In this document: in pieces, positions 8,540 through 30,731 of the stretch
How the letters are laid out: each line of letters starts with the position of its first letter
Position numbering within the stretch: the first letter of the stretch is position 1
Source: a virus
Lineage: Duplodnaviria > Heunggongvirae > Uroviricota > Caudoviricetes
Length of the DNA: 35,142 nt
Reading direction: 5' to 3' (one strand)
Virus record (IMG/VR): IMGVR_UViG_2526164668_000014
Notes under the pieces: model-generated
The model's input: the letters and a program-made list of their open reading frames with translations, nothing else
Told to the model about the DNA's origin: nothing
Databases searched by the model: none
Made by a program: the position numbers and the translations under genes

Positions 8540-9292
8540 ATGAACCTTGAAGCCTTACCAAAATATTACTCCCCAAAATCTCCAAAATTGAGCGATGACG
8601 CTCCAGCGACAGGCACCGGTTGTTTAACAATTACGGATGTAATGGCAGCGCAGGGGATGGTGCAGTCGAAAGCACCACTTGGGTTGGCCTTATTTCTGGC
8701 AAAAGTTGGTGTTCAGGACCCTCAGTTTGCGATTGAAGGCCTGCTAAATTACGCGATGGCACTGGATAACCCGACATTGAACAAATTGAGTGAAGAAATC
8801 CGGTTACAGATTATTCCTTACCTCGTGAGTTTTGCCTTTGCTGATTACTCCAGGTCTGCGGCAAGTAAGGCTCGCTGTGAGCATTGTTCAGGTACGGGAT
8901 TTTATAATGTATTGCGCGAAGTGGTGAAACACTACAGACGCGGGGAATCTGTAATCAAGGAAGAATGGGTGAAGGAACTATGTCAGCATTGCCATGGTAA
9001 GGGCGAAGCCAGCACAGCGTGCAGAGGGTGTAAGGGTAAAGGGATTGTTCTGGATGAAAAAAGAACCCGGTTTCATGGCGTACCGGTATATAAGATTTGT
9101 GGGCGTTGTAATGGAAACCGGTTTAGTCGTTTACCGACCACGCTGGCACGACGTCATGTCCAGAAGCTGGTACCAGACCTGACCGATTATCAGTGGTATA
9201 AGGGGTATGCGGACGTCATTGGTAAACTGGTAACAAAGTGCTGGCAGGAAGAAGCATACGCGGAAGCGCAATTGAGGAAGGTGACGAGATAA
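8540..9292 (+). CDS. quuQ: Late-gene antiterminator Q
   Basis: 250 aa MNLEALPKYYSPKSPKL...; Cys-rich zinc-binding region CEHCSGTG...CQHCHGKG...CRGCKGKG. Confidence 0.9.
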   Translation: MNLEALPKYYSPKSPKLSDDAPATGTGCLTITDVMAAQGMVQSKAPLGLALFLAKVGVQDPQFAIEGLLNYAMALDNPTLNKLSEEIRLQIIPYLVSFAFADYSRSAASKARCEHCSGTGFYNVLREVVKHYRRGESVIKEEWVKELCQHCHGKGEASTACRGCKGKGIVLDEKRTRFHGVPVYKICGRCNGNRFSRLPTTLARRHVQKLVPDLTDYQWYKGYADVIGKLVTKCWQEEAYAEAQLRKVTR

Positions 9293-9323
9293 ATGATTTT
9301 TGCTGAAGATGGCGACATGATGT

Positions 9324-9352
9324 TTGCATTCTTCAAAAAATATGGATAAAAT
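9324..9352 (+). promoter_or_regulatory. Candidate late promoter PR-prime
   Basis: TTGCAT-N17-TAAAAT immediately downstream of Q. Confidence 0.55.
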
Positions 9353-9398
9353 TTTTTCAACGATGGGCTTTGTATACCCGACGTTAAGAAAAAGTAGA

Positions 9399-9421
9399 AA
9401 ACCCGCTGATGAGCGGGTTTT
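9399..9421 (+). terminator. Candidate tR-prime terminator (Q antitermination target)
   Basis: CCCGC-TGATGA-GCGGG hairpin plus TTTTGTGCTTT, about 45 nt downstream of the candidate PR-prime -10. Confidence 0.6.
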
Positions 9422-9703
9422 GTGCTTTAAATGGGGCAATGGTAATGTCCCGGGACTCATGTCTGTTAACTTATTATTTAGCTGGTGACTTGGTTATTTG
9501 CCTGATGTTTAAAATGTTTTCTTCCAGTACAATGTCCCTAAACACAATGAGTCTGCTTATTATATTATTAGCAGAGCTATTACGGCCAAAGTACAGCATA
9601 AGCTTTTAAAGCCAATCAACCAGTCATCAAGACAGACGGGGTTATTCATAAAAACTCTCCATGTGTGATCCGATGGGGCCTGAAATTAAAGCTTTAATAT
9701 AGC

Positions 9704-11184: not shown

Positions 11185-11400
11185 ATGAAATCAATGGATA
11201 AGTTAACAACAGGTGTTGCCTATGGCACATCGGCGGGTAATGCTGGTTTCTGGGCATTGCAGTTACTCGATAAAGTAACTCCGTCACAGTGGGCTGCAAT
11301 CGGTGTGCTGGGTAGCCTGGTTTTTGGCCTGCTGACGTATCTGACAAATCTTTATTTCAAGATTAAAGAAGACAGGCGTAAGGCTGCGAGAGGAGAGTAA
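11185..11400 (+). CDS. essQ: Class II holin (phage-21 S-type pinholin)
   Basis: 71 aa [28 protein letters not shown]...; Met1-Lys-Ser-Met4 dual-start motif; two transmembrane segments. Confidence 0.9.
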
Positions 11401-11404
11401 TCCA

Positions 11405-11712
11405 ATGACTCAAGACTATGAACTGGTTGTGAAAGGAGTCCGTAATTTTGAGAATAAAGTTACGGTAACTGTAGCCTTACAGGACAAAGAACGCTTTGAC
11501 GGTGAAATTTTTGACCTGGATGTCGCCATGGACCGTGTTGAAGGAGCTGCGCTGGAGTTTTATGAGGCAGCAGCCAGAAGGAGCGTCCGGCAAGTCTTCC
11601 TGGAAGTAGCAGAAAAATTGTCAGAAAAAGTTGAGTCTTATCTGCAGCATCAGTACTCCTTTAAGATTGAAAATCCTGCCAATAAGCACGAGCGTCCTCA
11701 TCATAAATATCT

Positions 11713-11716
<4 letters not shown>
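11405..11716 (+). CDS. ydfR: YdfR (DUF1327) protein between holin and endolysin
   Basis: 103-aa ORF tightly packed between essQ and the lysozyme gene. Confidence 0.8.
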
Positions 11717-12740
<1,024 letters not shown>

Positions 12741-13101
12741 GGTAATATTAAATCGGAACATTTACATCGCGGAATGTAAAATTTGAATAAAAAGGACTCT
12801 TCCATGAGCCAAAATTCCTGAAATCTTAAGGGTAAGATAAAAGGTCTTAATCAGAATGACACGTTTTATTAATAAATAAAGCTATTCTTTCATTGCTGTG
12901 TTTTTCTTTACAAAAGTAATCCTTGCTATGGGTGGTTAATCATGCGTTAATGGTGTTCTGGTTTGTTACAAATTTATCTGAAGCAGTCATTGTTATAATT
13001 TTATTATTTGTACCTCTTGAGATTTCCTTGTTGGTTTTTCTCTCTGATATTTTTTTCGGACCATTCTGCCCAAGGGCTAATTTCTTCAAAAGGTAATAAT
13101 T

Positions 13102-13314
13102 ATGTCTAACAAAATGACTGGTTTAGTGAAATGGTTTAACCCTGAAAAAGGTTTTGGTTTCATCACGCCGAAAGATGGCAGCAAAGATGTGTTTGTCCAT
13201 TTCTCAGCAATTCAGAGCAACGATTTCAAAACATTAACTGAGAATCAGGAAGTTGAATTTGGTATTGAGAACGGACCTAAAGGTCCTGCCGCTGTTCATG
13301 TAGTGGCGCTTTGA
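13102..13314 (+). CDS. cspI: Cold-shock protein CspI
   Basis: 70 aa [37 protein letters not shown]... Confidence 0.9.
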
Positions 13315-13402
13315 GGTAGACAATATTACAAACCATATTCACTTTAGATGCCCGTGTTGTCATGGTTCCCAGTATAGAACATCATCTTTTGATGTTTCTG
13401 AC

Positions 13403-13513
13403 ATGAATCCTTTCGGGGCAAAATGTATCTTTTGTAAATCAATGATGATTACATTTGATAATATTTCACAATACTTAAATGCCAGCCGTCTGTCGTTGGA
13501 TTTAAAAAAGTGA
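13403..13513 (+). CDS. YnfN-like small zinc-ribbon ORF (start uncertain)
   Basis: Frame open from 13304 encodes ...RCPCCHGSQYRTSSFDVSDMNPFGAKCIFCKS...; first in-frame ATG is at 13403, after the first Cys pair. Confidence 0.35.
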   Translation: MNPFGAKCIFCKSMMITFDNISQYLNASRLSLDLKK

Positions 13514-13521
13514 AAATGAAG

Positions 13522-13541
13522 GCTCCTTCGGGAGCTTTTTT
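13522..13541 (+). terminator. Rho-independent terminator
   Basis: GCTCC-TTCG-GGAGC hairpin followed by TTTTTTG. Confidence 0.5.
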
Positions 13542-13585
13542 GCTTGGTGTCTATTCGATGGATACTCACATACTACGGTAACATC

Positions 13586-13816
13586 ATGAAAAAAATCATA
13601 GTTTTTTTTAACTCTGAACCAGCAGTGGTAGTGCCAGCGATGACTGGAGTTAACACCATCATGCGTGAATATCCAAATGGCGAAAAAACACACCTTACTG
13701 TAATGGCCGCAGGGTTTCCATCTCTGACCGGAGATCATAAAGTCATTTATGTAGCCGCGGATCGACATGTTACTTCAGAAGAAATTCTGGAAGCAGCAAT
13801 AAGGCTCTTGAGTTGA
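13586..13816 (+). CDS. Hypothetical small protein (76 aa)
   Basis: ORF MKKIIVFFNSEPAVVVPAMTG... downstream of the terminator; no strong SD. Confidence 0.4.
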   Translation: MKKIIVFFNSEPAVVVPAMTGVNTIMREYPNGEKTHLTVMAAGFPSLTGDHKVIYVAADRHVTSEEILEAAIRLLS

Positions 13817-13987
13817 TTTGATGCTATTGCATTGATAATTCAGGAAAATTCTCTTTGTCTGTTTGTGTAAAATTTAGACTATCGTATGTTGATTATTGCG
13901 ATGTTTCATCTTATCTTTTACACGTTTGCACCATATAATCGACTTACTGTGTAACTGGAAAGTCATAACAGACTAAAAGAGGAAATG

Positions 13988-14161
13988 ATGAATATTGAAG
14001 ACTTAAAAACAAAAGCAGAAGCAGATATTTCTGAATATATAACAAAAAAAATTATTGAACTTAAGAAAAAGACCGGGAAAGAAGTTACCAGTATTCAGTT
14101 TACCGCACGGGAAAAAATGACGGGTCTTGAAAGCTATGATGTCAAGATTAATTTAATCTGA
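13988..14161 (+). CDS. gnsB: GnsB (GnsA/GnsB family small protein)
   Basis: Hand-translated 57-aa ORF MNIEDLKTKAEADISEYITKKIIELKKKTGKEVTSIQFTAREKMTGLESYDVKINLI, below the ORF-track cutoff; an extra in-frame ATG at 13985. Confidence 0.8.
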   Translation: MNIEDLKTKAEADISEYITKKIIELKKKTGKEVTSIQFTAREKMTGLESYDVKINLI

Positions 14162-14312
14162 TGTATTCAATAATAAAATTTATCCATAAACCTCGTTTTT
14201 ACGGGGTTTTGTTATATTTGAATGGTTCCGAATATCTAAATCACAATTGTTGATGGTTTTTATTAAACCAATGCAGTCCGGCTCAGGAGTGAGAGAAGCC
14301 GGACGTTATGGT

Positions 14313-14744
14313 TTAGCGTGGTAAGATCTGTGTAGTTTTCTGGATGCTTTCAGTAATTTTCTGGATGCTTTCAGTAAATAGTAATGAGTTATCAAAGGCA
14401 TAGTAATATCTTTGGTGTTCCTGGATATTTGTAACCCATCGGAAAACTCCTGCTTTAGCAAGATTTTCCCTGTATTGTTGAAATGTGATTTCTTTTGATT
14501 TCAACTTATTATAGGAGGTCTCTATAAGATGTTTGTTTCTGGAGAATTTAACATTTACGACCTTTTTGAGTCCTTTTACTAACACTATGTTGTCGTTTTC
14601 TAACACAATGTGAATATTATCTGTGGCTAAATAGTAAATATAAAGTGAGACATTGTGACGTTTTAGCTCAGAATAAAATAATTCACAGTTTAAATCTTTA
14701 CGCACTTGATCGAATATTTCTTTAAAAATGGCAGCCTGAGCCAT
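14313..14744 (-). CDS. ydfO: YdfO (DUF1398) protein with a 7-codon C-terminal duplication
   Basis: [33 protein letters not shown]...; 143 aa versus a remembered 136 aa for K-12. Confidence 0.85.
14336..14377. repeat. Perfect 21-bp tandem duplication inside ydfO
   Basis: TTTTCTGGATGCTTTCAGTAA occurs twice in tandem, encoding [14 protein letters not shown]. Confidence 0.9.
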
Positions 14745-15044
14745 TGGTAAACCTTCCATGTGATACGATGGCGCGTAGTTAGCATTATCGTGTTTATTGT
14801 TTCAATCTGGTCTGACCTCTTTGTGTTTTGTTGATGATTTATGTCAAATATTAAGCCTGTTTTTAATGAATAGTGTTGATTGCGTAACAAAATTGAGCCT
14901 TGCTGGCATCCAGGAGGGATATGCAACCGACAGATGTATGTAAGGTCGATGTACTCAAACTTTCATACTTTTCCTCTTTTATGCAGTAAGATTTGAAGTA
15001 ATATTTTAACCGCTAGATGACGAGCAAACGCATGGAGCGACAAA

Positions 15045-15251
15045 ATGAATAAAGAACAATCTGCTGATGAACTCTCGTTGGATGTGATTCGTGTAAAAAA
15101 TATGCTTAATAGCACCATTTCTATGAGTTACCCGGATGTTGTAATTGCATGTATAGAACATCAGGTGTCTCTGGAAGCATTCAGGGCAATTGAGGCAGCG
15201 TTGGTGAAGCACGATAAGAATTCGAAGGATTATTCCCTGGTGGTTGACTGA
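15045..15251 (+). CDS. Hypothetical small protein (YnfO-position ORF)
   Basis: 68-aa [26 protein letters not shown]... Confidence 0.5.
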
Positions 15252-15271
15252 GCACCATAACTGCTAATCAT

Positions 15272-15439
15272 TCAAACTATTTCACCTGTGACAGAGTCAA
15301 TATCGCATTCTGTCACTGTCAGGCTAATACAGAGCTGCAATTCAACTACTGCAATGTCCTCGTAATTAGGTGAATTTACAATATCGTCCTGTTCGGATGC
15401 CGGTTGCATTGCTGAAGATGAGGCATTTATGGTTCGCAT
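15272..15439 (-). CDS. Candidate 55-aa ORF convergent with the previous gene
   Basis: Hand-translated MRTINASSSAMQPASEQDDIVNSPNYEDIAVVELQLCISLTVTECDIDSVTGEIV; SD-like GAGGGG before the ATG. Confidence 0.3.
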   Translation of the reverse strand: MRTINASSSAMQPASEQDDIVNSPNYEDIAVVELQLCISLTVTECDIDSVTGEIV

Positions 15440-15627
15440 ATTTTCCCCTCATGCTCGTCAGTCCTGTGCGTAGGAAGAAACAGGACACTCACACTAATTT
15501 GTGTGGGCATGCTGTGATGTCCTTCTGAATTATTCCTATGCCATTATGTAAAGCGCTGTATCAGATGCTCATCACGGCTGTCAGGCTGTCAGGCTGTCGG
15601 GTCCTCCCGGTGGGGGCCCCTGCCACG

Positions 15628-15639
15628 GGGCGGGAGCGT
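15628..15639. other. Candidate cosN cohesive-end site
   Basis: ACG-GGGCGGGAGCGT-CGCGG, GC-rich with partial dyad symmetry, resembles remembered lambda cosN GGGCGGCGACCT in its CGCGG context; about 175 bp upstream of the terminase small subunit. Confidence 0.5.
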
Positions 15640-15813
15640 CGCGGAAAAAGGCTAGTTTTTGAAATTTCATCCGTCATCACCACTACTGTAATAGATTGAT
15701 ATTACAGTATTTTTATTTTTGTGGTGTCGATTTTGATTGTTTTTTGTTCATCACTAACACCGTTTGCCTAAAGTCGTTCGCAAGATGCATGTTTAAAACA
15801 TTCTGGAGCGGGT

Positions 15814-16308
15814 ATGGATCGAGAGTTAAAAAATCTGACGCTGAATATCAGTCAATTGGCGGCACTGTCAGGTGTACATCGCCAGACTGCTGCGGCAAGG
15901 CTGCAAAATCTACCCGTTGCAGGGGGGCATGAAAGCAACCTCAAGCTTTATCGGGTGGTTGATATTGTGTCGGCATTTCTGGCATTACCACCGCCGGTTG
16001 CAGAAGGCGAAATGGACGCACATGAGCGCAAAGCCTGGTATCAGTCTGAACGTGAGCGTCTTAAGTTCGAACAGGAAACGGCACAACTCATTCCGGCCAG
16101 TGATGTCAGACGGGAGTTTGCCATCTGGGCAAAAGCGGTCGTGCAGGTGCTGGAGACATTACCGGATATTCTTGAACGTGACTGCGGTCTGCAGCCTGCC
16201 GCTGTGAGCCGTGTTCAGTCCATTATTGATGATCTGCGCGATCAGATAGCCCTGCGGGTGACTGAAGCAGGTGCGGATGATGAGGAGGAATTACAGCAGG
16301 AGGAGTAA
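15814..16308 (+). CDS. Terminase small subunit (Nu1/NohA-like)
   Basis: 164 aa; N-terminal HTH (LNISQLAALSGVHRQTAAARL), acidic C-terminus; stop overlaps the large-subunit ATG. Confidence 0.85.
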   Translation: MDRELKNLTLNISQLAALSGVHRQTAAARLQNLPVAGGHESNLKLYRVVDIVSAFLALPPPVAEGEMDAHERKAWYQSERERLKFEQETAQLIPASDVRREFAIWAKAVVQVLETLPDILERDCGLQPAAVSRVQSIIDDLRDQIALRVTEAGADDEEELQQEE

Positions 16309-18410
16309 TGCTGAATCAGGAAACCGCAAAGGCAGCACGAACCGATTCAGGTTATATCCTTCGCGCACCGAGACGAATGCGGGTTGCTGATGCCGTTGCT
16401 CAGTATATGCGGGTGCCCATGGGGGCAGGGAACTCAGTCCCGTGGGATCCGCTGGTGGCACCGTATGTTATTGAGCCTATGAACTGCCTGGCCTCGCGTG
16501 AATACGACGCAGTGATATTTGTTGGCCCGGCACGAACCGGCAAGACTATCGGCCTGATTGACGGCTGGGTGATTTACAACGTGATTTGCGATCCTGCTGA
16601 TATGCTGATCATTCAGATGACGGAGGAAAAAGCCCGCGAACACTCCAAAAAACGACTCGCCAGAACGTTTCGCGTCAGCCCGGAAGTGGTCAGTCGCCTG
16701 AGTCCGAACAAAAATGACAACAACGTTTATGACAGAACATTCCTTGCTGGCAACTACCTGAAAATCGGCTGGCCGTCAGTCAATATCATGTCTTCATCAG
16801 ATTATAAATGCGTGGCGCTGACGGATTATGACCGTTTTCCGGAAGATATTGATGGTGAGGGGGATGCCTTCTCTCTTGCCTCAAAACGTACCACCACATT
16901 TATGTCCAGTGGTATGACGCTTGTGGAGAGTTCCCCCGGCAGGGATGTGAAGGATGTGAAATGGCGACGGACTTCACCGCATGAGGCTCCACCAACCACG
17001 GGGATCCTGTCGCTCTATAACCGTGGCGATCGCCGTCGCTGGTACTGGCCCTGTCCACACTGTGGTGAGTATTTTCAGCCCTGCGGCGATGTGGTTGCTG
17101 GTTTCCGTGATATTGCCGATCCTGTGCTGGCAAGTGAGGCGGCTTATATTCAGTGTCCTTCCTGTTCAGGACGGATTTTGCCTGAACAAAAACGCGAGCT
17201 GAACGGACGTGGGGTCTGGTTACGGGATGGTGAATCCATCAATGCAGATGGCAGTCGTTATGGTGATCCCCGGCGTTCACGTATTGCGTCATTCTGGATG
17301 GAGGGTCCGGCAGCTGCTTATCAGACACTCTCGCAACTCGTTTACAAACTGCTTACTGCAGAACAGGAATACGAGACAACCGGAAGTGAAGAGACACTCA
17401 AGACGGTTATCAATACCGACTGGGGATTACCTTATCTTCCCCGCGCCAGCATGGAGCAACGAAAAAGTGAATTGCTTGAGCAGCGGGCAGAGCCAGTTCC
17501 TTCCCGCAGTGTGCCGGATGGCGTTAATTTCCTTGTGGCGACAGTGGATGTGCAGGCGGGACGTCATCGCCGTTTTGTGGTTCAGGTAACGGGCTATGGC
17601 AGCCGTGGCGAACGCTGGATTATTGATCGTTACAACATCACGCAGTCATTGCGCGGTGACAGCGACGGGGAGAGCCAGCGAATTGATCCGGCCAGCTATC
17701 CGGAAGACTGGGATGTCCTGCTGACGGATGTTTTTCATAAAAGCTGGCCGCTGGCCTCCGCCCCTTCTCAACAAATGCGACTGATGGCAATGGCGGTGGA
17801 CTCCGGCGGTGAAGACGGGGTCACTGATAATGCCTATAAATTCTGGCGTCGTTGCCGTCGTGATGGCCTTGGTAAACGTATTTACCTGTTTAAGGGCGAC
17901 AGCATCCGGCGAGCAAAACTGATCACCCGTACATTCCCTGATAACACCGGACGAACGGGCCGACGGGCGCAGGCCGCAGGTGATGTGCCGCTCTGGCTTC
18001 TTCAGACGGATGCCCTGAAAGACCGGGTGAATAACGCGTTATGGCGTGACTCGCCAGGTCCCGGCTATGTGCATTTCCCTGACTGGCTGGGGAGCTGGTT
18101 TTACGACGAACTGACGTATGAAGAGCGGAGCAGTGACGGGAAATGGAGTAAGCCGGGTCGCGGTGCCAACGAAGCTTTTGACCTGATGGTGTATGCCGAG
18201 GCTCTGGTCATTCTGCATGGATACGAAAAGATCCGCTGGCCGGATGCACCGGAGTGGGCGAGCCGGGAAACCTGGCTGGAGTGTGTCCCGGACAGTACCG
18301 AACCGTCACCCTCACCGGAACCGGTACCCACGCCTGTTAAAAAACAAAAACGGAAGAAAACAGTAACTGACGATGTTAACCCCTGGCTGACTTCCGGAGG
18401 ATGGTTATGA
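16308..18410 (+). CDS. Terminase large subunit (gpA family)
   Basis: 700 aa; Walker A-like GPARTGKT; Cys cluster CPHCGEYF...CPSCSGRI. Confidence 0.9.
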   Translation: MLNQETAKAARTDSGYILRAPRRMRVADAVAQYMRVPMGAGNSVPWDPLVAPYVIEPMNCLASREYDAVIFVGPARTGKTIGLIDGWVIYNVICDPADMLIIQMTEEKAREHSKKRLARTFRVSPEVVSRLSPNKNDNNVYDRTFLAGNYLKIGWPSVNIMSSSDYKCVALTDYDRFPEDIDGEGDAFSLASKRTTTFMSSGMTLVESSPGRDVKDVKWRRTSPHEAPPTTGILSLYNRGDRRRWYWPCPHCGEYFQPCGDVVAGFRDIADPVLASEAAYIQCPSCSGRILPEQKRELNGRGVWLRDGESINADGSRYGDPRRSRIASFWMEGPAAAYQTLSQLVYKLLTAEQEYETTGSEETLKTVINTDWGLPYLPRASMEQRKSELLEQRAEPVPSRSVPDGVNFLVATVDVQAGRHRRFVVQVTGYGSRGERWIIDRYNITQSLRGDSDGESQRIDPASYPEDWDVLLTDVFHKSWPLASAPSQQMRLMAMAVDSGGEDGVTDNAYKFWRRCRRDGLGKRIYLFKGDSIRRAKLITRTFPDNTGRTGRRAQAAGDVPLWLLQTDALKDRVNNALWRDSPGPGYVHFPDWLGSWFYDELTYEERSSDGKWSKPGRGANEAFDLMVYAEALVILHGYEKIRWPDAPEWASRETWLECVPDSTEPSPSPEPVPTPVKKQKRKKTVTDDVNPWLTSGGWL

Positions 18411-18619
18411 ATCAGAATGATATTGAAGCCATGATTCAGCGTTATACGGAAGCTGAAATGGCGGTGCTGGACGGAAAATCCGTCACTTTTAATGGTCAGC
18501 AGATGACCATGGAAAACTTATCTGAGATCCGGCAGGGGCGGCAGGAGTGGGAGCGCCGCCTTGCGGCTCTGATTACACGACGACGGGGGCATCCCGGGTA
18601 CCGGCTGGCGAGGTTCTGA
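18407..18619 (+). CDS. W: gpW-like head completion protein
   Basis: About 70 aa; GGAGG SD before the second ATG; ATGA overlap with the terminase stop and TGATG overlap with the portal start. Confidence 0.7.
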   Translation: MNQNDIEAMIQRYTEAEMAVLDGKSVTFNGQQMTMENLSEIRQGRQEWERRLAALITRRRGHPGYRLARF

Positions 18620-20127
18620 TGGCAATTCTTGATGATGTGATTGGCGTTTTTTCACCAGGATGGAAAGCGGCAAGGCTGCGTTCCCGTGCGGTGATCCAGG
18701 CTTATGAGGCCGTAAAAACGACGCGGACACACAAAGCCCGACGGGAGAACCGAACTGCCGACCAGTTAAGCCAGTACGGGGCCGTGTCGTTACGTGAGCA
18801 GGCTCGTTACCTTGATAACAACCACGATCTGGTCATTGGTGTATTTGACAAGCTGGAAGAACGGGTGGTGGGGAAAAACGGGATTATTGTCGAGCCACAT
18901 CCGGTATTACGCAATGGGGCCATTGCCCGTGATCTGGCAGCGGAGATACGTACCCGATGGAGTGAATGGTCTGTCAGTCCGGAGGTCACCGGGCAGTTTA
19001 CCCGTCCGATGCTGGAACGTCTGATGCTGCGTACCTGGCTGCGCGATGGTGAGGTGTTTGCCCAGATGGTTTCCGGGCGCATAAACAGCCTGACGCCTTC
19101 TGCCGGTGTTCATTTCTGGCTGGAGGCGCTCGAGCCGGACTTTATTCCCATGACCAGTGATGAGAGCAACAGGCTGAATCAGGGCGTGTTTGTTGATGAC
19201 TGGGGGCGTCCCGAAAAATATCTGGTGTATAAAAGCCGTCCCGTATCCGGGCGGCAGATGGAAACCAAAGAAGTGGATGCAGAGCGAATGCTGCATCTTA
19301 AATTTGTTCGCCGTCTGCACCAGATGCGCGGGACGTCTTTGTTGTCCGGTGTGCTGATCCGCCTCAGTGCTCTGAAAGAGTATGAAGATTCTGAGCTGAC
19401 TGCAGCAAGGATCGCCGCTGCTCTGGGGATGTACATCCGGAAAGGCGACGGACAGAGCTATGAAACGGATGGTAATGACAGCAAGGAGAATGAACGCGAG
19501 CTTACCATTCAGCCAGGCATTATTTACGACGATCTGAAACCCGGCGAAGAAATCGGAATGGTGAAGTCGGATCGCCCCAATCCTAACCTTGAAACTTTTC
19601 GTAATGGTCAGTTGCGTGCCGTGGCTGCGGGCAGTCGTCTGAGTTTTTCCAGTACAGCGCGCAACTATAACGGCACCTACAGCGCCCAGCGTCAGGAGCT
19701 GGTTGAATCTACTGATGGCTACCTGATCCTGCAGGACTGGTTTATTGGTGCCGTCACCCGCCCGATGTACCGTGCCTGGCTGAAACAGGCTGTGGTATCC
19801 GGTGTTATCAGGCTACCCCGCGATCTGGACCGATCTTCACTGTATACCGCGGTGTATTCCGGACCGGTGATGCCGTGGATTGACCCTGTTAAGGAGGCTG
19901 AGGCCTGGAAAATTCAGATTCGTGGTGGAGCGGCGACAGAATCAGACTGGGTACGTGCAGGTGGTCGTAATCCAGATGATGTCAAACGTCGGCGCAAGGC
20001 CGAAATTGATGAAAACCGCAAGCTGGATCTGGTATTTGATACCGATCCGGCCAGTGATAAAGGAGGCAGCAGTGCCGCAACGAAACGACAGGAGCCGCAG
20101 CACACCGACGACCAGTCCGAAGAATAA
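18619..20127 (+). CDS. B: Portal protein (lambda gpB family)
   Basis: 502 aa from MAILDDVIGVF...; positioned between W and the protease/capsid gene. Confidence 0.85.
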   Translation: MAILDDVIGVFSPGWKAARLRSRAVIQAYEAVKTTRTHKARRENRTADQLSQYGAVSLREQARYLDNNHDLVIGVFDKLEERVVGKNGIIVEPHPVLRNGAIARDLAAEIRTRWSEWSVSPEVTGQFTRPMLERLMLRTWLRDGEVFAQMVSGRINSLTPSAGVHFWLEALEPDFIPMTSDESNRLNQGVFVDDWGRPEKYLVYKSRPVSGRQMETKEVDAERMLHLKFVRRLHQMRGTSLLSGVLIRLSALKEYEDSELTAARIAAALGMYIRKGDGQSYETDGNDSKENERELTIQPGIIYDDLKPGEEIGMVKSDRPNPNLETFRNGQLRAVAAGSRLSFSSTARNYNGTYSAQRQELVESTDGYLILQDWFIGAVTRPMYRAWLKQAVVSGVIRLPRDLDRSSLYTAVYSGPVMPWIDPVKEAEAWKIQIRGGAATESDWVRAGGRNPDDVKRRRKAEIDENRKLDLVFDTDPASDKGGSSAATKRQEPQHTDDQSEE

Positions 20128-20140
20128 TTCCTGGTTCAGG

Positions 20141-22099
20141 ATGCAGGCAGGTCACCAGAGTGACGCGGATATTTATATTTATGACGAGATTGGTTTCTGG
20201 GGTGTTACGGCGAAGCAGTTTATCAGTGATCTGAATGCACTGGGCGATATCACCCACATTAATCTCCATATTAATTCACCGGGTGGCGATGTCTTTGAAG
20301 GCATCGCCATTTTTAATGCACTGAAAACACATGGTGCGTCCATTACCGTTTATGTCGACGGTGTGGCGGCGTCAATGGCGTCGGTCATTGCGATGGTGGG
20401 AAACCCGGTCATTATGCCGGAAAACTCCTTCATGATGATTCATAAACCATTTGGCTTTACGGGCGGTGATGCGGAGGACATGCGCACCTATGCCGACCTG
20501 CTCGATAAAGTTGAGGCGGTTCTGTTACCCGCTTATGCACAGAAAACCGGGAAAACCACAGATGAAATTGCTGCCATGCTGGCGGATGAGACCTGGATGT
20601 CCGGTGCCGAATGTCTGGCACAGGGATTTGCTGATCAGGTGACACCAGCCGTTAAGGCAATGGCATGTATTCAGTCAAAACGTACAGAGGAATTTAAAAA
20701 GATGCCGGAATCCATTCGAAATATGATTACTCCGCCACGCAACAGTGCTCCACGCGTACAGGATGATGGACCTGCAGCCTCCCGGACACCAGTGCAGGCA
20801 GCAGCACCCGTGGTGGATGAAAACAGCATCCGTGCGCAGGTCCTGGCAGAGCAAAAAGCGCGTGTAAACGGTATTAATGATCTGTTTGCCATGTTTGGCG
20901 GGCGTTATCAGTCGTTGCAGGCTCAGTGTCTTGCCGATCCTGAATGTTCGCTGGAGCAGGCCCGCGAAAAGCTGTTGAACGAGATGGGGCGCGAGTCCAC
21001 GCCATCCAATAAAAATACCCCGGCTCATATTTATGCCGGTAACGGTAATTTTGTGGGGGACGGGATCCGCCAGGCGCTGATGGCGCGCGCCGGGTTTGAA
21101 AAAACTGAACGTGATAATGTCTACAACGGGATGACCCTGCGTGAATATGCCCGTATGTCACTGACTGAACGTGGTATTGGTGTTTCCAGTTATAACCCGA
21201 TGCAGATGGTCGGTGCGGCGTTCACACACAGTACGTCTGACTTCGGTAATATTCTGCTGGATGTTGCGAACAAAGCCATTCTGCAGGGCTGGGAAGATGC
21301 CCCTGAAACCTATGAACAGTGGACGCGGAAAGGTCAGTTGTCTGATTTTAAAATTGCCCATCGTGTGGGTATGGGGGGCTTCAGTGCTCTGCGTCAGGTG
21401 CGTGAAGGGGCAGAATATAAATACGTCACCACCGGAGATAAACAGGCCACTATTGCACTGGCGACCTATGGCGAGCTGTTCAGTATCACCCGTCAGGCCA
21501 TTATCAATGATGATCTGAATATGCTGACCGATGTCCCGATGAAGCTGGGCCGTGCGGCGAAATCCACTATTGCCGATCTGGTTTATGCCATTCTGACGTC
21601 TAACCCGAAAATCTCCACAGATAATGTAAGTCTGTTCGATAAAGCGAAACATGCAAACGTACTGGAGAGCGCGGCAATGGACGTGGCATCGCTGGATAAA
21701 GCCCGCCAGTTGATGCGCGTTCAGAAAGAGGGTGAGCGTCATCTGAATATTCGTCCTGCGTTCGTACTGGTACCGACGGCGATGGAGTCTGTTGCTAACC
21801 AGGTCATTCGCTCCTCAAGTGTCAAGGGGGCTGACATTAACGCCGGTATTATTAACCCGGTGAAAGATTTTGCGACCGTTATTGCAGAGCCTCGTCTTGA
21901 TGATAACAGCCAGACCACCTTCTACCTGGCTGCGTCCAAAGGCTCCGATACGATTGAAGTGGCTTATCTCAACGGTGTGGATACGCCATATATTGATCAG
22001 ATGGAGGGCTTCAGTGTGGATGGCGTGACAACGAAAGTGCGTATTGACGCTGGTGTTGCGCCAGTTGATCACCGCGGCCTGGTGAAATGTACGGCGTAA
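20141..22099 (+). CDS. Prohead protease (ClpP/S14-like) fused to major capsid protein
   Basis: 652 aa; N-terminal ClpP-like region with GVAASMASVI serine motif; C-terminal region about 330 aa in the major-capsid position; followed by a terminator. Confidence 0.8.
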   Translation: MQAGHQSDADIYIYDEIGFWGVTAKQFISDLNALGDITHINLHINSPGGDVFEGIAIFNALKTHGASITVYVDGVAASMASVIAMVGNPVIMPENSFMMIHKPFGFTGGDAEDMRTYADLLDKVEAVLLPAYAQKTGKTTDEIAAMLADETWMSGAECLAQGFADQVTPAVKAMACIQSKRTEEFKKMPESIRNMITPPRNSAPRVQDDGPAASRTPVQAAAPVVDENSIRAQVLAEQKARVNGINDLFAMFGGRYQSLQAQCLADPECSLEQAREKLLNEMGRESTPSNKNTPAHIYAGNGNFVGDGIRQALMARAGFEKTERDNVYNGMTLREYARMSLTERGIGVSSYNPMQMVGAAFTHSTSDFGNILLDVANKAILQGWEDAPETYEQWTRKGQLSDFKIAHRVGMGGFSALRQVREGAEYKYVTTGDKQATIALATYGELFSITRQAIINDDLNMLTDVPMKLGRAAKSTIADLVYAILTSNPKISTDNVSLFDKAKHANVLESAAMDVASLDKARQLMRVQKEGERHLNIRPAFVLVPTAMESVANQVIRSSSVKGADINAGIINPVKDFATVIAEPRLDDNSQTTFYLAASKGSDTIEVAYLNGVDTPYIDQMEGFSVDGVTTKVRIDAGVAPVDHRGLVKCTA

Positions 22100-22185
22100 A
22101 CGTCGCAGACAACAACTCTGATGGCCCGTAAGGGCTTTTTTTGTACCTGAAATCAGCCCCTGAACGGGGCTGTGCGGAGACAGTT

Positions 22186-22509
22186 ATGGCAAAGAATTTT
22201 GTAGAAGAAGGAAAAACGGTGGCGATTGTTGCCAGTGCAGCCATCAGCAGCGGAGATCTGGTGCAGGTGGGTGATGTTTTTGCGGTGGCGCTGACCGATA
22301 TTCCACAGGGAGAAACAGGCGACGGCATAACCGAAGGTGTGTTTATGCTGCCTAAGCTGAAAACGGATGACATGAAAACGGGTAAGAAGGTTTATCTGAA
22401 GTCAGGAAAAGTTCAGCTGACTAACAGCGGCTCTGATCCGCTGGTCGGGGTTGTATGGGCAGATGCCGGAACCAGTGCAGAAGAAGTGCCGGTAAAACTC
22501 AATGTCTGA
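22186..22509 (+). CDS. Small head-associated protein (possible decoration or connector protein)
   Basis: 107 aa after GGAGA SD, directly downstream of the capsid gene. Confidence 0.5.
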   Translation: MAKNFVEEGKTVAIVASAAISSGDLVQVGDVFAVALTDIPQGETGDGITEGVFMLPKLKTDDMKTGKKVYLKSGKVQLTNSGSDPLVGVVWADAGTSAEEVPVKLNV

Positions 22510-22777
22510 TCCCTTTTCCCGGCTGGCAGCGCGTATGGATGCGATCACGGTCAGAAAGATGGGAAAGACAGCCTCGATTAATGATGTCGATATGACTGTG
22601 ATCCCGGGAGAAACACTGGCAGAGCTGAATGCTCTGTCCGGACCTGCGGTCTCTCTGGTGGTGTTTTCTTCGGGATACCGCCCACGGCGCGGGGATCGCG
22701 TTGTTTATGACGGACAACAATGGACGGTCACACGGCATGAACGTTTTAACAGTAAGCCAATGATCTTTATTGAGTAA
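22502..22777 (+). CDS. Head-tail joining protein (hypothetical)
   Basis: 91-aa ORF overlapping the previous stop. Confidence 0.5.
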   Translation: MSDPFSRLAARMDAITVRKMGKTASINDVDMTVIPGETLAELNALSGPAVSLVVFSSGYRPRRGDRVVYDGQQWTVTRHERFNSKPMIFIE

Positions 22778-22788
22778 AGAGGTGTGGG

Positions 22789-23367
22789 ATGAAGGGGCTT
22801 GAGAATGCCATCCGCAATCTGAACAGCCTTGATACCCGTATGGTGCCACAGGCCAGCGCATGGGCGATAAACCGTTTGGCACAGAAAGCGGTCTCGGTTG
22901 CCACCCGGCAGGTTGCCGGGAATACCGTTGCGGGAGATAACCAGGTGAAAGGGATCCCCCTGAAACTGGTACGTCAGCGTGTCCGGGTGTTTAAAGCCAG
23001 TCCGTCAGGAAAAATGACGGCCAGGATCCGCGTTAACCGGGGCAATCTGCCCGCCATTAAGCTGGGGACAGCCCGGGTCAGACTGGCCCGGCGTGGTGGA
23101 AAACTGCAGTACCGTGGCAGTGTGCTGAAGGTGGGTAAATATCTTTTCCGGGATGCGTTTATTCAGCAACTGGCGAATGGTCGCTGGCATGTGATGCGAC
23201 GTATTGATGGCAAAAATCGTTACCCCATTGATGTGGTGAAAATCCCGCTGTCCGGACCGCTGACACAGGCATTTGAAGATGCCCGCGACCACATCATTGC
23301 TGCGGAAATGCCGAAACAGCTTGGGTATGCACTGAAACAACAACTGAGGTTATGGCTGACCCGATGA
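22789..23367 (+). CDS. Z: Tail completion protein Z-like
   Basis: 192 aa; conserved GRWHVMRRIDGKNRYPIDVVKIP segment as in lambda Z; gene order. Confidence 0.7.
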   Translation: MKGLENAIRNLNSLDTRMVPQASAWAINRLAQKAVSVATRQVAGNTVAGDNQVKGIPLKLVRQRVRVFKASPSGKMTARIRVNRGNLPAIKLGTARVRLARRGGKLQYRGSVLKVGKYLFRDAFIQQLANGRWHVMRRIDGKNRYPIDVVKIPLSGPLTQAFEDARDHIIAAEMPKQLGYALKQQLRLWLTR

Positions 23368-23765
23368 ACCGACATACACAAATCCGCCAGGCCGTACTGG
23401 CACGCCTTCGGGAACAGTGTGGAGACAGCGCCACGTTTTTTGACGGGCTTCCGGCATTTATTGATGCGCAGGAACTGCCTGCCGTGGCGGTGTGGCTGAG
23501 TGATGCTCAGTACACCGGAAAAATGACGGATGAAGATGACTGGCAGGCTGTTCTGCATATTGCCGTCTTCATCCGGGCACAGGCACCGGATTCAGAGCTG
23601 GATATGTGGATGGAGAGCACCATTTTCCCTGCCCTGAATGATATACCGGCACTTTCCGGACTCATCGACACCCTGATCCCACTCGGTTTTAACTATCAAC
23701 GTGATAATGAGATGGCCACCTGGGCGATGGCGGAAATCACGTACCAGATCACGTACACGAATTAA
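23364..23765 (+). CDS. U: Tail terminator protein U-like
   Basis: MNRHTQIRQAVLARL...ATFFDG...PAVAVWL matches remembered lambda U; ATGA overlap with the Z stop. Confidence 0.75.
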   Translation: MNRHTQIRQAVLARLREQCGDSATFFDGLPAFIDAQELPAVAVWLSDAQYTGKMTDEDDWQAVLHIAVFIRAQAPDSELDMWMESTIFPALNDIPALSGLIDTLIPLGFNYQRDNEMATWAMAEITYQITYTN

Positions 23766-23775
23766 GGAGGTGGTA

Positions 23776-24519
23776 ATGACCACACCAAATCCACTGGCAA
23801 AGACGAAAGGTGCGGGGACGACGTTCTGGATGTATACCGGCAACGGCGATGCGTTTGCGAACCCTTTGTCGGACACTGACTGGCTGCGTCTTGCGATGGT
23901 GAAGGATCTGCAACCTGGCGAAATGACCGCTGATGCAGAAGATGACACTTATCTCGATGATGAAGATGCAGACTGGAAAACGACAACCCAGGGGCAGAAA
24001 TCCGTTGGTGATACTTCGGCGACGCTGGCCTGGCGTCCGGGTGACAGCGGGCAGAAAAAACTGGTTCAGTTGTTCGACTCCGGTGAAGTCTGCGCGTTTC
24101 GTATCAAATATCCCAACGGCACTGTTGATGTTTTCCGTGGCTGGCTGAGCTCACTGGGTAAAACCATTGCCTCAAAAGACGTGATGACCCGCACTGTGAA
24201 AATCAGCGGTGTGGGGCGTCCGTATCTGGCAGAGGAAGGCACTGAAACCGTGAGCGTTACCGGGCTGACAGTATCACCGGCGTCTGCCAGTGTAAAAGTG
24301 GGAGCAACCACCACGCTGACCTTTACAGTAAAACCTGACGGAGCCAGTGACAAAGCGATCAGTGTGCATTCGTCAGATCCACAGACTGCCACGGTTACCC
24401 TGAACGGACTTGTGGCCACGGTAAAAGGCGTGAAGCAGGGCAGTGTCAGCATTGTGGGCATGACCGCTGACGGGAATTTTGTGGCTGTGACTGCGGTGAC
24501 TGTCAGCGCAGCAGGTTAA
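23776..24519 (+). CDS. V: Major tail protein V with C-terminal Ig-like (Big_2) domain
   Basis: AAGGAGG SD; 247 aa; C-terminal TVSPASASVKVGATTTLTFTVKPDGASD... Ig-like repeat. Confidence 0.85.
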   Translation: MTTPNPLAKTKGAGTTFWMYTGNGDAFANPLSDTDWLRLAMVKDLQPGEMTADAEDDTYLDDEDADWKTTTQGQKSVGDTSATLAWRPGDSGQKKLVQLFDSGEVCAFRIKYPNGTVDVFRGWLSSLGKTIASKDVMTRTVKISGVGRPYLAEEGTETVSVTGLTVSPASASVKVGATTTLTFTVKPDGASDKAISVHSSDPQTATVTLNGLVATVKGVKQGSVSIVGMTADGNFVAVTAVTVSAAG

Positions 24520-24539
24520 CAGGACGATACTCATCATTT

Positions 24540-24563
24540 GCCCCGGTTATGCGGGGCTTTTTT
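24540..24563 (+). terminator. Rho-independent terminator between V and G
   Basis: GCCCCG-GTTATG-CGGGGC hairpin followed by TTTTTT. Confidence 0.6.
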
Positions 24564-24576
24564 GCAGGTGGAGAAC

Positions 24577-24966
24577 ATGATGTTTCTGAAACAGGACACG
24601 TTTAATTATGAAAAACAGTCCGTGGTGCTCAGTGAGCTGTCCGGGCTGCAGAGAATTGAATATCTGACGTTTGTTCAGCAGCGAACGGCAAAGTTTGATG
24701 CCGGGGAGGGAGAACTGCCGGAGGCTGAACGACAGATTGCTTTTCTGCGGATGGGGATGGATATCAATGCCTGGCTGGTTTCCCGCTCACTGTGGAATGC
24801 GGATCAGTCTAAGGATGTAGAGACGCTTTGCGCATCCGTTATTACAACATGGTCGTATGATGCCCTGGGTGCGGGGGCGGAGATGGTTCTGTCGCTGAGC
24901 GGTATGGGGGCCATTGATAATGCCGTGGATGATGAGCATGAGGCGCTGACGCCGGAAAAGTCCTGA
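24577..24966 (+). CDS. G: Tail assembly chaperone G
   Basis: MMFLKQDTFNYEKQSVVLSELSGLQRIEYL resembles remembered lambda G (MFLKTESFEHNGVTVTLSELSALQRIEHL). Confidence 0.8.
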   Translation: MMFLKQDTFNYEKQSVVLSELSGLQRIEYLTFVQQRTAKFDAGEGELPEAERQIAFLRMGMDINAWLVSRSLWNADQSKDVETLCASVITTWSYDALGAGAEMVLSLSGMGAIDNAVDDEHEALTPEKS

Positions 24967-28670: not shown

Positions 28671-28679
28671 GAGTCTCTG

Positions 28680-29378: not shown

Positions 29379-29383
29379 ATCCC

Positions 29384-30672: not shown

Positions 30673-30691
30673 TGAAAAACGTTTATGTGAA

Positions 30692-30712: not shown

Positions 30713-30731
30713 CGTTTCTGGAGCGTGAGGA

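What the first reader, a model, noticed from the sequence alone, without database searches (positions are those of the whole stretch)
9293..9430. Compact late promoter and terminator pair downstream of Q
TTGCAT-N17-TAAAAT is followed about 45 nt later by a strong intrinsic terminator. This fits a PR-prime/tR-prime unit where Q loads at a qut site and suppresses termination. The leader would be short, as in phage-21/82-type Q systems rather than lambda.
Basis: partly seen in the sequence, partly recalled or inferred. Interest (0 to 1): 0.4.

Follow-up and report, generated by a model that had tools for sequence, protein, structure and literature searches.

The report
Lambda-type late promoter and terminator
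This is the late-gene switch of a Qin-like lambdoid prophage of E. coli: a promoter, a built-in pause signal and a terminator just after the Q antiterminator gene. It is a textbook lambda-type device, not a phage 21/82-type one, and in E. coli K-12 an RNA 3' end maps exactly at this terminator.

Summary
TTGCAT (9324-9329), a 17-bp spacer and TAAAAT (9347-9352) are followed 45 nt later by a strong hairpin (9398-9421) and a U-tract.

The PR'/tR' interpretation is well supported. The upstream gene is a Q antiterminator. The unit aligns without gaps to lambda PR' (32 of 44 identical; next best in the window 25). It carries lambda's sigma-dependent pause element AACGAT-GGG in lambda's register. A complete late operon follows on the same strand. 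The layout recurs in 75 distinct leaders downstream of Q genes of this family.

Published Term-seq in K-12 (1 mismatch in 148 nt) shows a strong 3' end at the equivalent of window 9425. That is +67 on the Q strand, in all three growth conditions.

The "phage 21/82-type rather than lambda" part is wrong. Q belongs to Pfam PF03589, the lambda Q family, and the pause element sits where lambda's does. Short leaders (median about 61-68 nt) are the norm in this family, and lambda's 194 nt is the outlier.

Differences from lambda: there is no -35-like TTGACT beside the pause element, and Q has an enlarged arm with two predicted zinc sites. No transcription start data could be reached.

An ordinary, unannotated member of a known system.

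The parts
8540..9292 (+). Q antiterminator gene (ydfT/quuQ type, 250 aa), lambda Q family
   Evidence: Pfam PF03589 at 181 bits, the same family as lambda Q. BLASTP to lambda Q: 33% identity, E = 2e-40, with a 48-aa insert in the zinc-ribbon arm. RefSeq annotates it as antitermination protein Q.
9324..9329 (+). -35 hexamer TTGCAT of the late promoter PR'
   Evidence: Same register as lambda TTGACT. TTGCAT/TTGCAA is conserved across the QuuQ clade, mean 1.68 bits.
9330..9346 (+). 17-bp promoter spacer, the putative Q binding element. Constrained blocks are TTC (9332-9334) with the A-tract, and TGG (9343-9345).
   Evidence: Per-position information is 1.6-2.0 bits at spacer positions 3-5 and 1.7-1.8 at positions 14-16, but 0.3-0.45 at positions 2, 12, 13 and 17. 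Lambda has TTG and TGG at the same positions. The lambda QBE lies between -35 and -10 (PMC6606751) and is contacted at its positions 1-4 and 11-13 (PMC9388147). Q binding here is inferred.
9347..9352 (+). -10 hexamer TAAAAT of PR'
   Evidence: 5 of 6 to consensus. Aligns with lambda TAAATT. A TAnnnT hexamer is kept in nearly all of the 75 unique leaders.
9359..9367 (+). Predicted start site (A at 9359) and sigma-dependent pause element: -10-like AACGAT (+1..+6) plus GGG discriminator (+7..+9)
   Evidence: Identical in sequence and register to lambda. Lambda pR' has 'AACGAT' at +1 to +6 and a GGG discriminator-like sequence (PMC4005639, PMC5001585). It is the most conserved block, 1.9 bits. AACGAT occurs in 66 of 75 and GGG in 66 of 75 unique leaders. 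The start site itself is inferred by homology.
9371..9375 (+). Predicted promoter-proximal pause region (+13..+17, TGTAT)
   Evidence: Inferred from lambda, where sigma engages at RNA length 13 and the pause is at +16/+17 (PMC5001585). TTGT at +12..+15 is conserved in the clade. Not tested.
9359..9385 (+). Predicted 5'-terminal RNA stem-loop: +1..+4 AACG pairs with +24..+27 CGTT, and +6..+9 pairs with +19..+22
   Evidence: Present in the MFE of the leader. At least 4 of positions +1..+5 are paired in the MFE in 24 of 28 non-redundant leaders, against 14% of shuffles. The pooled covariation test is only suggestive.
9386..9397 (+). A-rich single-stranded linker (AAGAAAAAGTAG). It also supplies the U-tract for the minus-strand reading of the terminator.
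   Evidence: Unpaired or only weakly paired in the folds. Its reverse complement gives the tail CTACTTTTTC.
9398..9428 (+). Intrinsic terminator tR': 10-bp stem, GATG loop, U-tract TTTTGTGCTTT. The measured 3' end in K-12 corresponds to window 9425 (+67).
   Evidence: -22.1 kcal/mol, z = -8.0. Term-seq 3' end at K-12 1642356 (-) in all three conditions (PMC7815308 supplementary file 1), mapped to window 9425. The equivalent site in phage SfV is annotated as a putative rho-independent terminator.
11185..34797 (+). Late operon served by PR': holin, YdfR, lysozyme, Rz-like protein, then terminase, portal, protease/head, major tail, tape measure, minor tail, J and Lom
   Evidence: Pfam P21-type holin, lysozyme and DUF2514. 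PHROGs terminase large subunit, portal, head protease, tail proteins and Lom, all on the + strand.

Best explanation
The segment 9324-9428 is the late-gene control cassette (PR' promoter, qut site and tR' terminator) of a Qin-like lambdoid prophage. It is a homologue of the lambda cassette. Proposed mechanism, with shown and inferred steps marked. RNA polymerase with sigma-70 starts constitutively at about 9359 (inferred). Sigma region 2 rebinds the -10-like AACGAT/GGG at +1..+9 and the complex pauses around +13..+17 (inferred from lambda). Without Q, transcription ends at the hairpin and U-tract, giving an RNA of about 67 nt (the 3' end is shown in K-12; the 5' end is inferred). When Q, encoded immediately upstream, accumulates, it binds the conserved promoter spacer (TTC...TGG blocks), loads onto the paused polymerase, and makes it read through tR' and later terminators. 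Transcription then runs across the cspF/cspB insertion into the lysis and morphogenesis genes (inferred). Compared with lambda the leader is compact. The -35-like TTGACT beside the pause element is replaced by a T-rich stretch. Q carries a duplicated CxxCxGxG zinc module in its DNA- and sigma-contacting arm.
For: Q is PF03589 and aligns end to end with lambda Q, including the N-terminal segment that forms the RNA-exit-channel nozzle in lambda (PMC9388147). The ungapped match to lambda PR' is 32 of 44, with the same -35/17 bp/-10/6 bp/AACGATGGG register. AACGAT at +1..+6 plus GGG is the experimentally defined lambda pause element (PMC4005639, PMC5001585). The layout is conserved downstream of PF03589 Q genes in 28-29 diverse Enterobacterales loci and in 75 unique leaders overall. 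A hairpin with T-tract was found within 200 nt in 65 of the 75, and 61 of those predict RNAs of 80 nt or less. The promoter spacer has two constrained blocks one helical turn apart. The same unit, at 80-99% identity, follows Q in phages SfV, mEp460, 2H10, Tritos, PhiR42_1 and Stx2c phages. SfV and mEp460 have only plus-strand genes downstream. The terminator is strong. In K-12, which differs at 1 of 148 nt, Term-seq finds a high-count 3' end on the Q strand at the exact U-tract position in LB OD 0.4, LB OD 2.0 and M63. A complete late operon lies downstream on the same strand.
Against: No 5'-end (TSS) data for this promoter could be reached, so initiation at 9359 is inferred. The Term-seq 3' end could in principle come from ydfU-ydfT read-through or from processing. 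The promoter hexamers are only 8-9 of 12 to consensus, and such matches are at chance frequency in this region. The lambda -35-like element, described as required for lambda Q recruitment (PMC6606751), is absent here (TTTTTT in place of TTGACT). Loading may therefore differ, or in principle be impaired. There is no direct evidence that this Q binds the spacer or is active. The K-12 copy sits in a cryptic prophage.
Confidence: 0.85

Rival explanations
1. The hairpin is simply the shared terminator of the convergent genes ydfT (Q) and cspF-ynfS, and the promoter-like hexamers upstream are a chance match.
For: cspF (9704-9916) and ynfS (9560-9649) are on the minus strand and point at the hairpin. 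The scan called the terminator on the minus strand. The minus-strand fold is stable (-14.0 kcal/mol, z = -6.3) with the tail UUUUCUACUUUUUC. Promoter-like hexamers are at chance density.
Against: The same unit is kept in SfV and mEp460, where there is no convergent gene. The SfV and Stx2c versions have 7 U on the plus strand and no U-tract on the minus strand. The AACGATGGG element and the lambda register cannot be explained by a terminator-only role. K-12 Term-seq lists no plus-strand (cspF-direction) 3' end at 16423xx: all three entries are the minus-strand site. As an additional function in Qin-type prophages it remains plausible (about 0.4). As the sole explanation it does not.
Confidence: 0.05
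2. The unit is a phage 21- or 82-type Q cassette.
For: I did not check the phage 21 or 82 leader lengths. No other evidence was found.
Against: Q is PF03589, not PF06530 (Q21) or PF06323 (Q82) (family definitions in PMC9388147). The pause element is at +1..+9 as in lambda, not 9 bp further downstream as in phage 82 (PMC5001585). There is no TGAGCA direct-repeat QBE near the promoter (PMC6606751). Short leaders are typical of the lambda Q family itself.
Confidence: 0.01
3. The main biological role of the segment in the lysogen is to produce a stable regulatory small RNA of about 67 nt that acts in trans, like StxS of Stx phages. Antitermination control would be a shared or ancestral role.
For: There is a high-count 3' end at tR' in uninduced K-12 in three conditions. 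The predicted RNA has a 5' stem-loop, an A-rich (AAG/AAA/AAG) linker and a terminator with a U-tail. [quoted passage not shown] An RNA named cspF.ydfT.IGR appears among Hfq RIL-seq RNAs (PMC8175672 supplement).
Against: The RIL-seq-based classifier gives that RNA an sRNA probability of only 0.0024, and the strand is not stated. No Rfam family matches the leader here or in 18 relatives. No target, phenotype or Hfq dependence is known. The loop and linker sequences are poorly conserved across the clade.
Confidence: 0.15
4. The segment encodes a small protein. Phage PhiR42_1 annotates a hypothetical CDS over it, and the window has a 54-aa TTG ORF at 9324-9488.
For: An ORF exists, and PhiR42_1 lists a hypothetical protein at the equivalent place.
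Against: The ORF starts at the -35 hexamer and runs through the terminator. The only in-transcript ATG (+5, part of AACGATGGG) is followed by a stop after two codons in lambda (ATG GGT TAA). No reading frame is therefore conserved across the family, and conservation follows the promoter, pause and hairpin elements rather than codons.
Confidence: 0.02

Closest known systems
Bacteriophage lambda Q - PR' - qut - tR' cassette (the 6S RNA leader)
   Same: Same Q protein family (PF03589). Same position immediately after Q. Same -35/17 bp/-10/6 bp register. Identical pause element AACGAT+GGG at +1..+9. Spacer blocks TT(G/C) and TGG at the same positions. Intrinsic terminator before the lysis genes. 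A 5'-terminal stem that uses the pause-element bases is predicted in both.
   Different: The leader is about 67 nt here and 194 nt in lambda. The -35-like TTGACT 1 bp upstream of the pause element is replaced by TTTTTT. Q is 250 aa with a 48-aa insert that adds two CxxCxGxG motifs to the zinc-ribbon arm. The terminator is usable on both strands. A cspF/ynfS/cspB insertion separates tR' from the holin gene.
Shigella phage SfV, coliphage mEp460 and Stx2c-converting phages (QuuQ-type Q with the same downstream unit)
   Same: Q at 94% identity. The PR'-tR' unit is 82-85% identical with the same layout. The SfV record already annotates the hairpin as a putative rho-independent terminator.
   Different: Their terminator has a 7-U tract and works on one strand only. 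The downstream cargo differs: orf47/48 in SfV, a methylase plus tRNA-Met and tRNA-Arg in the Stx2c phage, and no csp genes.
StxS, the sRNA made by termination of the Stx-phage PR' transcript at tR' (PMC7547250)
   Same: The concept is the same: a constitutive late promoter terminated just downstream in the lysogen yields an abundant short RNA. A strong 3' end at tR' is seen in uninduced K-12.
   Different: StxS is processed by RNase E into a 74-nt species and has shown Hfq binding and targets. Here, no function, no clear Hfq association and no sequence relationship has been shown.
Phage 21 and phage 82 Q cassettes
   Same: Same logic (QBE, sigma-dependent pause, terminator) and the same genomic position.
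   Different: They use unrelated Q protein families (PF06530, PF06323). Q21 uses a TGAGCA direct-repeat QBE. The phage 82 pause element lies 9 bp further downstream, with the pause at +25 (PMC6606751, PMC5001585). None of these features is present here.

Membership tests
Lambda-type (PF03589) Q antitermination cassette | Q protein of Pfam family PF03589 encoded immediately upstream | tested here: met
   181.3 bits against a cut-off of 26.7. Lambda Q scores in the same family. BLASTP E = 2e-40 over the full length.
Lambda-type (PF03589) Q antitermination cassette | Sigma-70 promoter just downstream of Q on the same strand | tested here: inconclusive
   The hexamers are present and homologous to lambda PR' (32 of 44) and are conserved. 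No TSS dataset could be reached, so initiation is not shown.
Lambda-type (PF03589) Q antitermination cassette | -10-like pause element AACGAT at +1..+6 followed by a GGG discriminator | tested here: met
   AACGATGGG at 9359-9367, 6 bp after the -10 as in lambda. Defined for lambda in PMC4005639 and PMC5001585.
Lambda-type (PF03589) Q antitermination cassette | Q binding element between the -35 and -10 hexamers | tested here: inconclusive
   The spacer has two constrained blocks (TTC, TGG) about one helical turn apart, at the positions of TTG and TGG in lambda.
Lambda-type (PF03589) Q antitermination cassette | -35-like element (TTGACT) immediately upstream of the pause element, required for lambda Q recruitment (PMC6606751) | tested here: not met
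   The window has TTTTTT at the equivalent position, 3 of 6 matches. The QuuQ clade has T-rich TTTYCY there. The same paper says this element is absent from the late promoters of other lambdoid phages, so it may be specific to lambda rather than defining for the family.
Lambda-type (PF03589) Q antitermination cassette | Intrinsic terminator between the pause site and the late genes | tested here: met
   Hairpin at -22.1 kcal/mol, z = -8.0. Term-seq 3' end at the U-tract in K-12.
Lambda-type (PF03589) Q antitermination cassette | Lysis and morphogenesis genes downstream on the same strand | tested here: met
   Holin, lysozyme, Rz-like protein, terminase, portal, head and tail genes, all on the + strand.
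Lambda-type (PF03589) Q antitermination cassette | Q-dependent, NusA-stimulated read-through of the terminator | not testable with these tools
   Needs in vitro transcription or reporter assays.
Phage 21-type Q cassette | Q protein of PF06530, and a QBE made of two TGAGCA direct repeats | tested here: not met
   There is no PF06530 hit. With up to 2 mismatches, TGAGCAnnTGAGCA matches only at 16595, 18496, 29989 and 30936, at chance frequency and nowhere near the promoter.
Phage 82-type Q cassette | Q protein of PF06323, with the pause element about 9 bp further downstream (pause at +25/26) | tested here: not met
   There is no PF06323 hit. The pause element starts at +1 (PMC5001585).
PR'-derived regulatory sRNA (StxS-like) | A short tR'-terminated RNA accumulates in the uninduced lysogen | tested here: inconclusive
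   The 3' end is present at high counts in three conditions in K-12. The 5' end and transcript size have not been measured.
PR'-derived regulatory sRNA (StxS-like) | Hfq binding and trans-encoded targets | tested here: inconclusive
   cspF.ydfT.IGR is listed among RIL-seq RNAs, but with an sRNA probability of 0.0024 and no strand given. No targets are known.

The most novel reading that the evidence does not exclude
Three linked possibilities are not excluded. (1) The pause element does double duty. Its RNA copy (+1..+4/5) forms the 5' arm of a 5'-terminal stem-loop conserved across the lambda Q family, which could protect the late transcript and the short RNA from 5'-end-dependent decay, or help keep Q on the nascent RNA. 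(2) The abundant ~67-nt terminated RNA of the cryptic Qin prophage is an unannotated riboregulator in E. coli K-12. (3) QuuQ-type Q proteins, which have a DnaJ-like arm with two predicted zinc sites and no -35-like element next to the pause site, load onto RNA polymerase in a way that differs from lambda Q.
Probability: 0.25. Interest if true: 0.5.

Novelty: new member of a known kind. Interest (0 to 1): 0.22.

Why it matters
It puts a precise, testable annotation (promoter, pause element, terminator, and a measured 3' end) on a stretch that RefSeq leaves blank in K-12 and that a phage record mis-annotates as a protein gene. It shows that compact leaders of about 60-70 nt are the norm for lambda-family Q cassettes. 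The same cassette follows a 94%-identical Q in Stx2c-converting phages. The toxin genes themselves were not checked here. Beyond that it is an ordinary member of a textbook system.

Tried and rejected
1. TSS evidence. I searched the supplements of ROSE (PMC10301672), Cappable-seq (PMC4782308), the RNA-seq compendium (PMC10392735) and Conway 2014 (PMC4161252) for K-12 coordinates around 1642422 (v3) and 1640446 (v2). Nothing was held or found. Three ids entered from memory returned 'no paper held': PMC4288677 (for Thomason 2015), PMC415771 (Guo & Roberts 2004, id from a reference list) and PMC6980735 (for Melamed 2020).

2. Rfam. No family hits the leader in the window (E <= 1) or in 18 relatives. 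I rejected the idea that STnc100/PasD, reported next to PF03589 Q genes, is the PR' leader RNA. Those hits lie hundreds of bases further downstream.

3. The 5' stem. MAFFT gave an ungapped alignment with the 3' arms out of register. An ungapped-stem statistic was weakly discriminating (96% against a 48% null), and a few leaders break the stem. The stem is reported as suggestive only.

4. Small-ORF reading: rejected, because there is no conserved frame and lambda stops after two codons.

5. Phage 21/82 reading: rejected on protein family and on the position of the pause element.

6. The first locus collection from viral contigs was 94-100% identical to the window and gave no information about constraint.

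Full report
**What the window is.** The 1.8 kb around the finding is 100% identical to chromosomes of bovine E. coli strains, and about 99% identical copies occur in more than a thousand complete genomes. The annotated neighbourhood is that of the Qin prophage: relBE, hokD, rem, ydfU, ydfT (antitermination protein Q), ynfS and cspF on the opposite strand, cspB, ynfU, then holin, ydfR, rrrQ and rzpQ. K-12's Qin is cryptic. This window goes on to a complete plus-strand late operon: terminase, portal, head protease, major tail, tape measure, minor tail proteins, J and Lom. Phage PhiR42_1 has the same gene order from relBE to rzpQ.

**Observation.**
- TTGCAT at 9324-9329, a 17-bp spacer, and TAAAAT at 9347-9352.
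- 45 nt later, a hairpin with a 10-bp stem at 9398-9421 and a U-tract running to 9428.

The hexamers alone are not significant. The scan found 12 promoter-like sites in 5 kb against 8.2 expected. The hairpin is significant: -22.1 kcal/mol, z = -8.0.

**Identity with lambda PR'.** I fetched the lambda Q-to-S region. Without gaps, lambda reads TTGACT-17 bp-TAAATT-TGACTC-AACGAT-GGG. The window reads TTGCAT-17 bp-TAAAAT-TTTTTC-AACGAT-GGG. From -35 to +9, 32 of 44 bases are identical. The best of all other positions on both strands of the window is 25 of 44.

AACGAT at +1 to +6, followed by a GGG discriminator-like sequence, is the experimentally defined sigma-70-dependent pause element of lambda pR' (PMC4005639). 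It gives the +16/+17 pause at which Q loads (PMC5001585). By homology the start site here is A at 9359.

**The Q protein.** The upstream ORF (8540-9292, 250 aa) scores 181 bits on Pfam PF03589, as does lambda Q. It aligns with lambda Q from end to end (E = 2e-40). The alignment includes the N-terminal segment that forms the RNA-exit-channel nozzle in lambda (PMC9388147). That paper assigns Q-lambda to PF03589, Q21 to PF06530 and Q82 to PF06323, so this is a lambda-family Q.

It differs from lambda Q by a 48-aa insert in the zinc-ribbon arm. The insert adds two CxxCxGxG motifs, making four in all, and gives a DnaJ_CXXCXGXG hit above threshold.

**Why not phage 21 or 82.**
- The protein family does not fit either.
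- The phage 82 pause element lies 9 bp further downstream, with the pause at +25 (PMC5001585).
- The Q21 binding element is a TGAGCA direct repeat (PMC6606751), and nothing like it lies near this promoter.
- The short leader does not discriminate (see the next section).

**Conservation.** I collected DNA downstream of PF03589 Q genes from one genome per species and from viral contigs. In 28-29 non-redundant loci from Escherichia, Enterobacter, Kosakonia, Mangrovibacter, Phytobacter, Pectobacterium, Edwardsiella, Erwinia and others, the order is the same. It runs -35, a 16-17 bp spacer, -10, 6-7 bp, AACGAT(GGG), then a hairpin with a T-tract.

Pooled over 75 unique leaders:
- AACGAT is present in 66 and GGG in 66.
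- 65 have a hairpin with a T-tract within 200 nt.
- 61 of those 65 predict terminated RNAs of 80 nt or less, with a median of 61 nt. In the species set the median is 68 nt.

Lambda's 194-nt leader is therefore the outlier.

Within the QuuQ clade the pause element is the most conserved block, at 1.9 bits. The promoter spacer has two constrained blocks, TTC at 9332-9334 with the following A-tract and TGG at 9343-9345, separated by unconstrained positions. Lambda has TTG and TGG at the same spacer positions. This fits a Q binding element contacted at its two ends (PMC9388147), but binding is inferred, not shown.

**Experimental support.** The K-12 sequence differs from the window at 1 of 148 positions, an unconstrained spacer base. 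Term-seq of MG1655 (PMC7815308, supplementary file 1) lists an 'orphan' 3' end at 1642356 on the minus strand. Its flanking sequence is exactly this terminator, and it is present in all three conditions, with values of 103,591 and 55,368 in the two rows displayed.

That coordinate maps to window 9425. It is 8 nt after the last G-C pair of the stem and 67 nt from the predicted start. ydfT is on the minus strand in K-12, so this is the Q/PR' strand. All three entries beginning 16423 are this minus-strand site, and none begins 16424, so the table holds no cspF-strand 3' end at the hairpin.

I could not reach any TSS table covering this site. The 5' end therefore remains inferred.

**Rival: a convergent-gene terminator.** cspF and ynfS point at the hairpin, and the minus-strand fold is respectable (-14.0 kcal/mol, tail UUUUCUACUUUUUC). 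However, the unit is kept in SfV and mEp460, where all downstream genes are on the plus strand. The SfV and Stx2c versions have a 7-U tract on the plus strand and none on the minus strand. The hairpin is therefore primarily tR'. In Qin-type prophages the A-rich linker may let it also serve the inserted csp module.

**Differences from lambda.** The -35-like TTGACT, 1 bp upstream of the pause element, is described as required for lambda Q recruitment and as absent from other lambdoid late promoters (PMC6606751). Here it is replaced by TTTTTT, and by T-rich TTTYCY across the clade. In lambda the Q arm contacts sigma region 4 repositioned on that DNA (PMC9388147). The arm is exactly where QuuQ carries its insert, so loading may differ in detail.

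**A possible 5' RNA stem.** The leader folds with +1..+4 (AACG) paired to +24..+27 (CGTT). At least 4 of positions +1..+5 are paired in the MFE in 24 of 28 non-redundant leaders, lambda included, against 14% of shuffles. Variant sequences follow a compensatory path:
- C3-G, then U3.G (L096, L105), then U3-A (L131).
- G4-C, then G4.U (L088), then A4-U (L100).

A pooled ungapped test was weak, 96% against a 48% null, and a few leaders break the stem. I rate this as suggestive only.

**Short RNA function.** The predicted RNA is a 5' stem-loop, an A-rich linker and a terminator with a U-tail. It recalls StxS, the Hfq-binding sRNA made from the tR'-terminated PR' transcript of Stx phages (PMC7547250). 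An RNA called cspF.ydfT.IGR is listed among Hfq RIL-seq RNAs, but with an sRNA probability of only 0.0024. No Rfam family matches the leader. A trans role is possible but unsupported.

**Verdict.** The PR'/qut/tR' interpretation is supported. The 21/82-type attribution is wrong. This is an unannotated but ordinary member of the lambda-type Q cassette, in the QuuQ/SfV subtype also found in an Stx2c-converting phage.

Noticed in passing
window 8540-9292 (Q residues about 121-168): Relative to lambda Q, this Q has a 48-aa insert in the zinc-ribbon arm that adds two CxxCxGxG motifs. That makes four motifs and eight Cys, like the two-zinc DnaJ domain (Pfam DnaJ_CXXCXGXG 35.4 bits, above the cut-off). 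In lambda the arm contacts the QBE and sigma region 4.
   Followed up: partly
window 9359-9385, and leaders in L001, L003, L084-L135: The RNA copy of the pause element (AACG) is predicted to pair with a conserved CGTT about 20 nt downstream. This would form a stem-loop at the very 5' end of the transcript across the lambda Q family, lambda included. The covariation is suggestive but not conclusive.
   Followed up: partly
window 9316-9322: A CATGATG block abutting the -35 hexamer is conserved in the QuuQ clade, and CATGAT precedes the -35 in lambda (GGCATGATATTGACT). Its function is unknown. It could be an upstream promoter element.
   Followed up: no
window about 9583 (K-12 1642188, minus strand): Term-seq lists a second 'orphan' 3' end on the PR' strand about 158 nt past tR', antisense to ynfS, in one displayed condition. 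It could reflect read-through of tR', processing, or a separate start such as the promoter-like site at 9539-9566.
   Followed up: no
window 10055-10447: cspB carries a full cspA-type thermoregulator 5' UTR (Rfam RF01766, 158.8 bits). Term-seq shows a 3' end inside this UTR (K-12 1641634, about window 10136).
   Followed up: no
window 10713-10732: A second strong hairpin (AAACCCGC-TCAG-GCGGGTTT) lies between cspB and the opposite-strand ynfU. K-12 Term-seq has a 3' end there on the ynfU strand (1641060). Only sub-threshold Rfam hits (isrK, Trp leader, P9) overlap it.
   Followed up: no
L089, L093, L102, L105, L107, L134, L106, L149 (downstream of tR'): In relatives, the region between tR' and the lysis genes holds tRNA-Met/tRNA-Arg genes, one or more STnc100 copies, isrI and a Sib RNA. 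All are on the late strand and so sit behind the Q-controlled terminator.
   Followed up: partly
L150 3545-3700 (PhiR42_1), window 9324-9488: The phage record annotates a 'hypothetical protein' CDS that starts at the -35 hexamer and runs through the terminator. It is almost certainly a spurious gene call over the PR'-tR' unit.
   Followed up: yes
L111-L133, L136-L146 (genome-contig hits): Many assemblies of unrelated organisms (Bradyrhizobium, Kitasatospora, Oceanobacillus, Shewanella, Segatella and others) contain short contigs encoding what appears to be lambda Q itself. Their identity to the query (33%) and match length (207 aa) equal lambda Q's, and L111's downstream sequence equals lambda PR'. 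This looks like lambda DNA contamination of the assemblies.
   Followed up: no
L130 (E. coli ECGI0523): A decayed copy of the cassette. The Q reading frame ends about 180 codons early (in-frame stop at locus 1704, where the full-length match runs to 2250). The pause element is mutated to AACCAT and the CGTT partner to TGTT. This is consistent with loss of constraint once Q is dead.
   Followed up: no
L149 (Stx2c-converting phage Stx2c_PV98-693): The same QuuQ-type Q and PR'-tR' unit is followed by a lipoprotein-like ORF, a DNA methylase, tRNA-Met and tRNA-Arg. The locus ends before any stx gene, so the toxin genes were not examined. This subtype of cassette may sit upstream of Stx2c expression.
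   Followed up: partly
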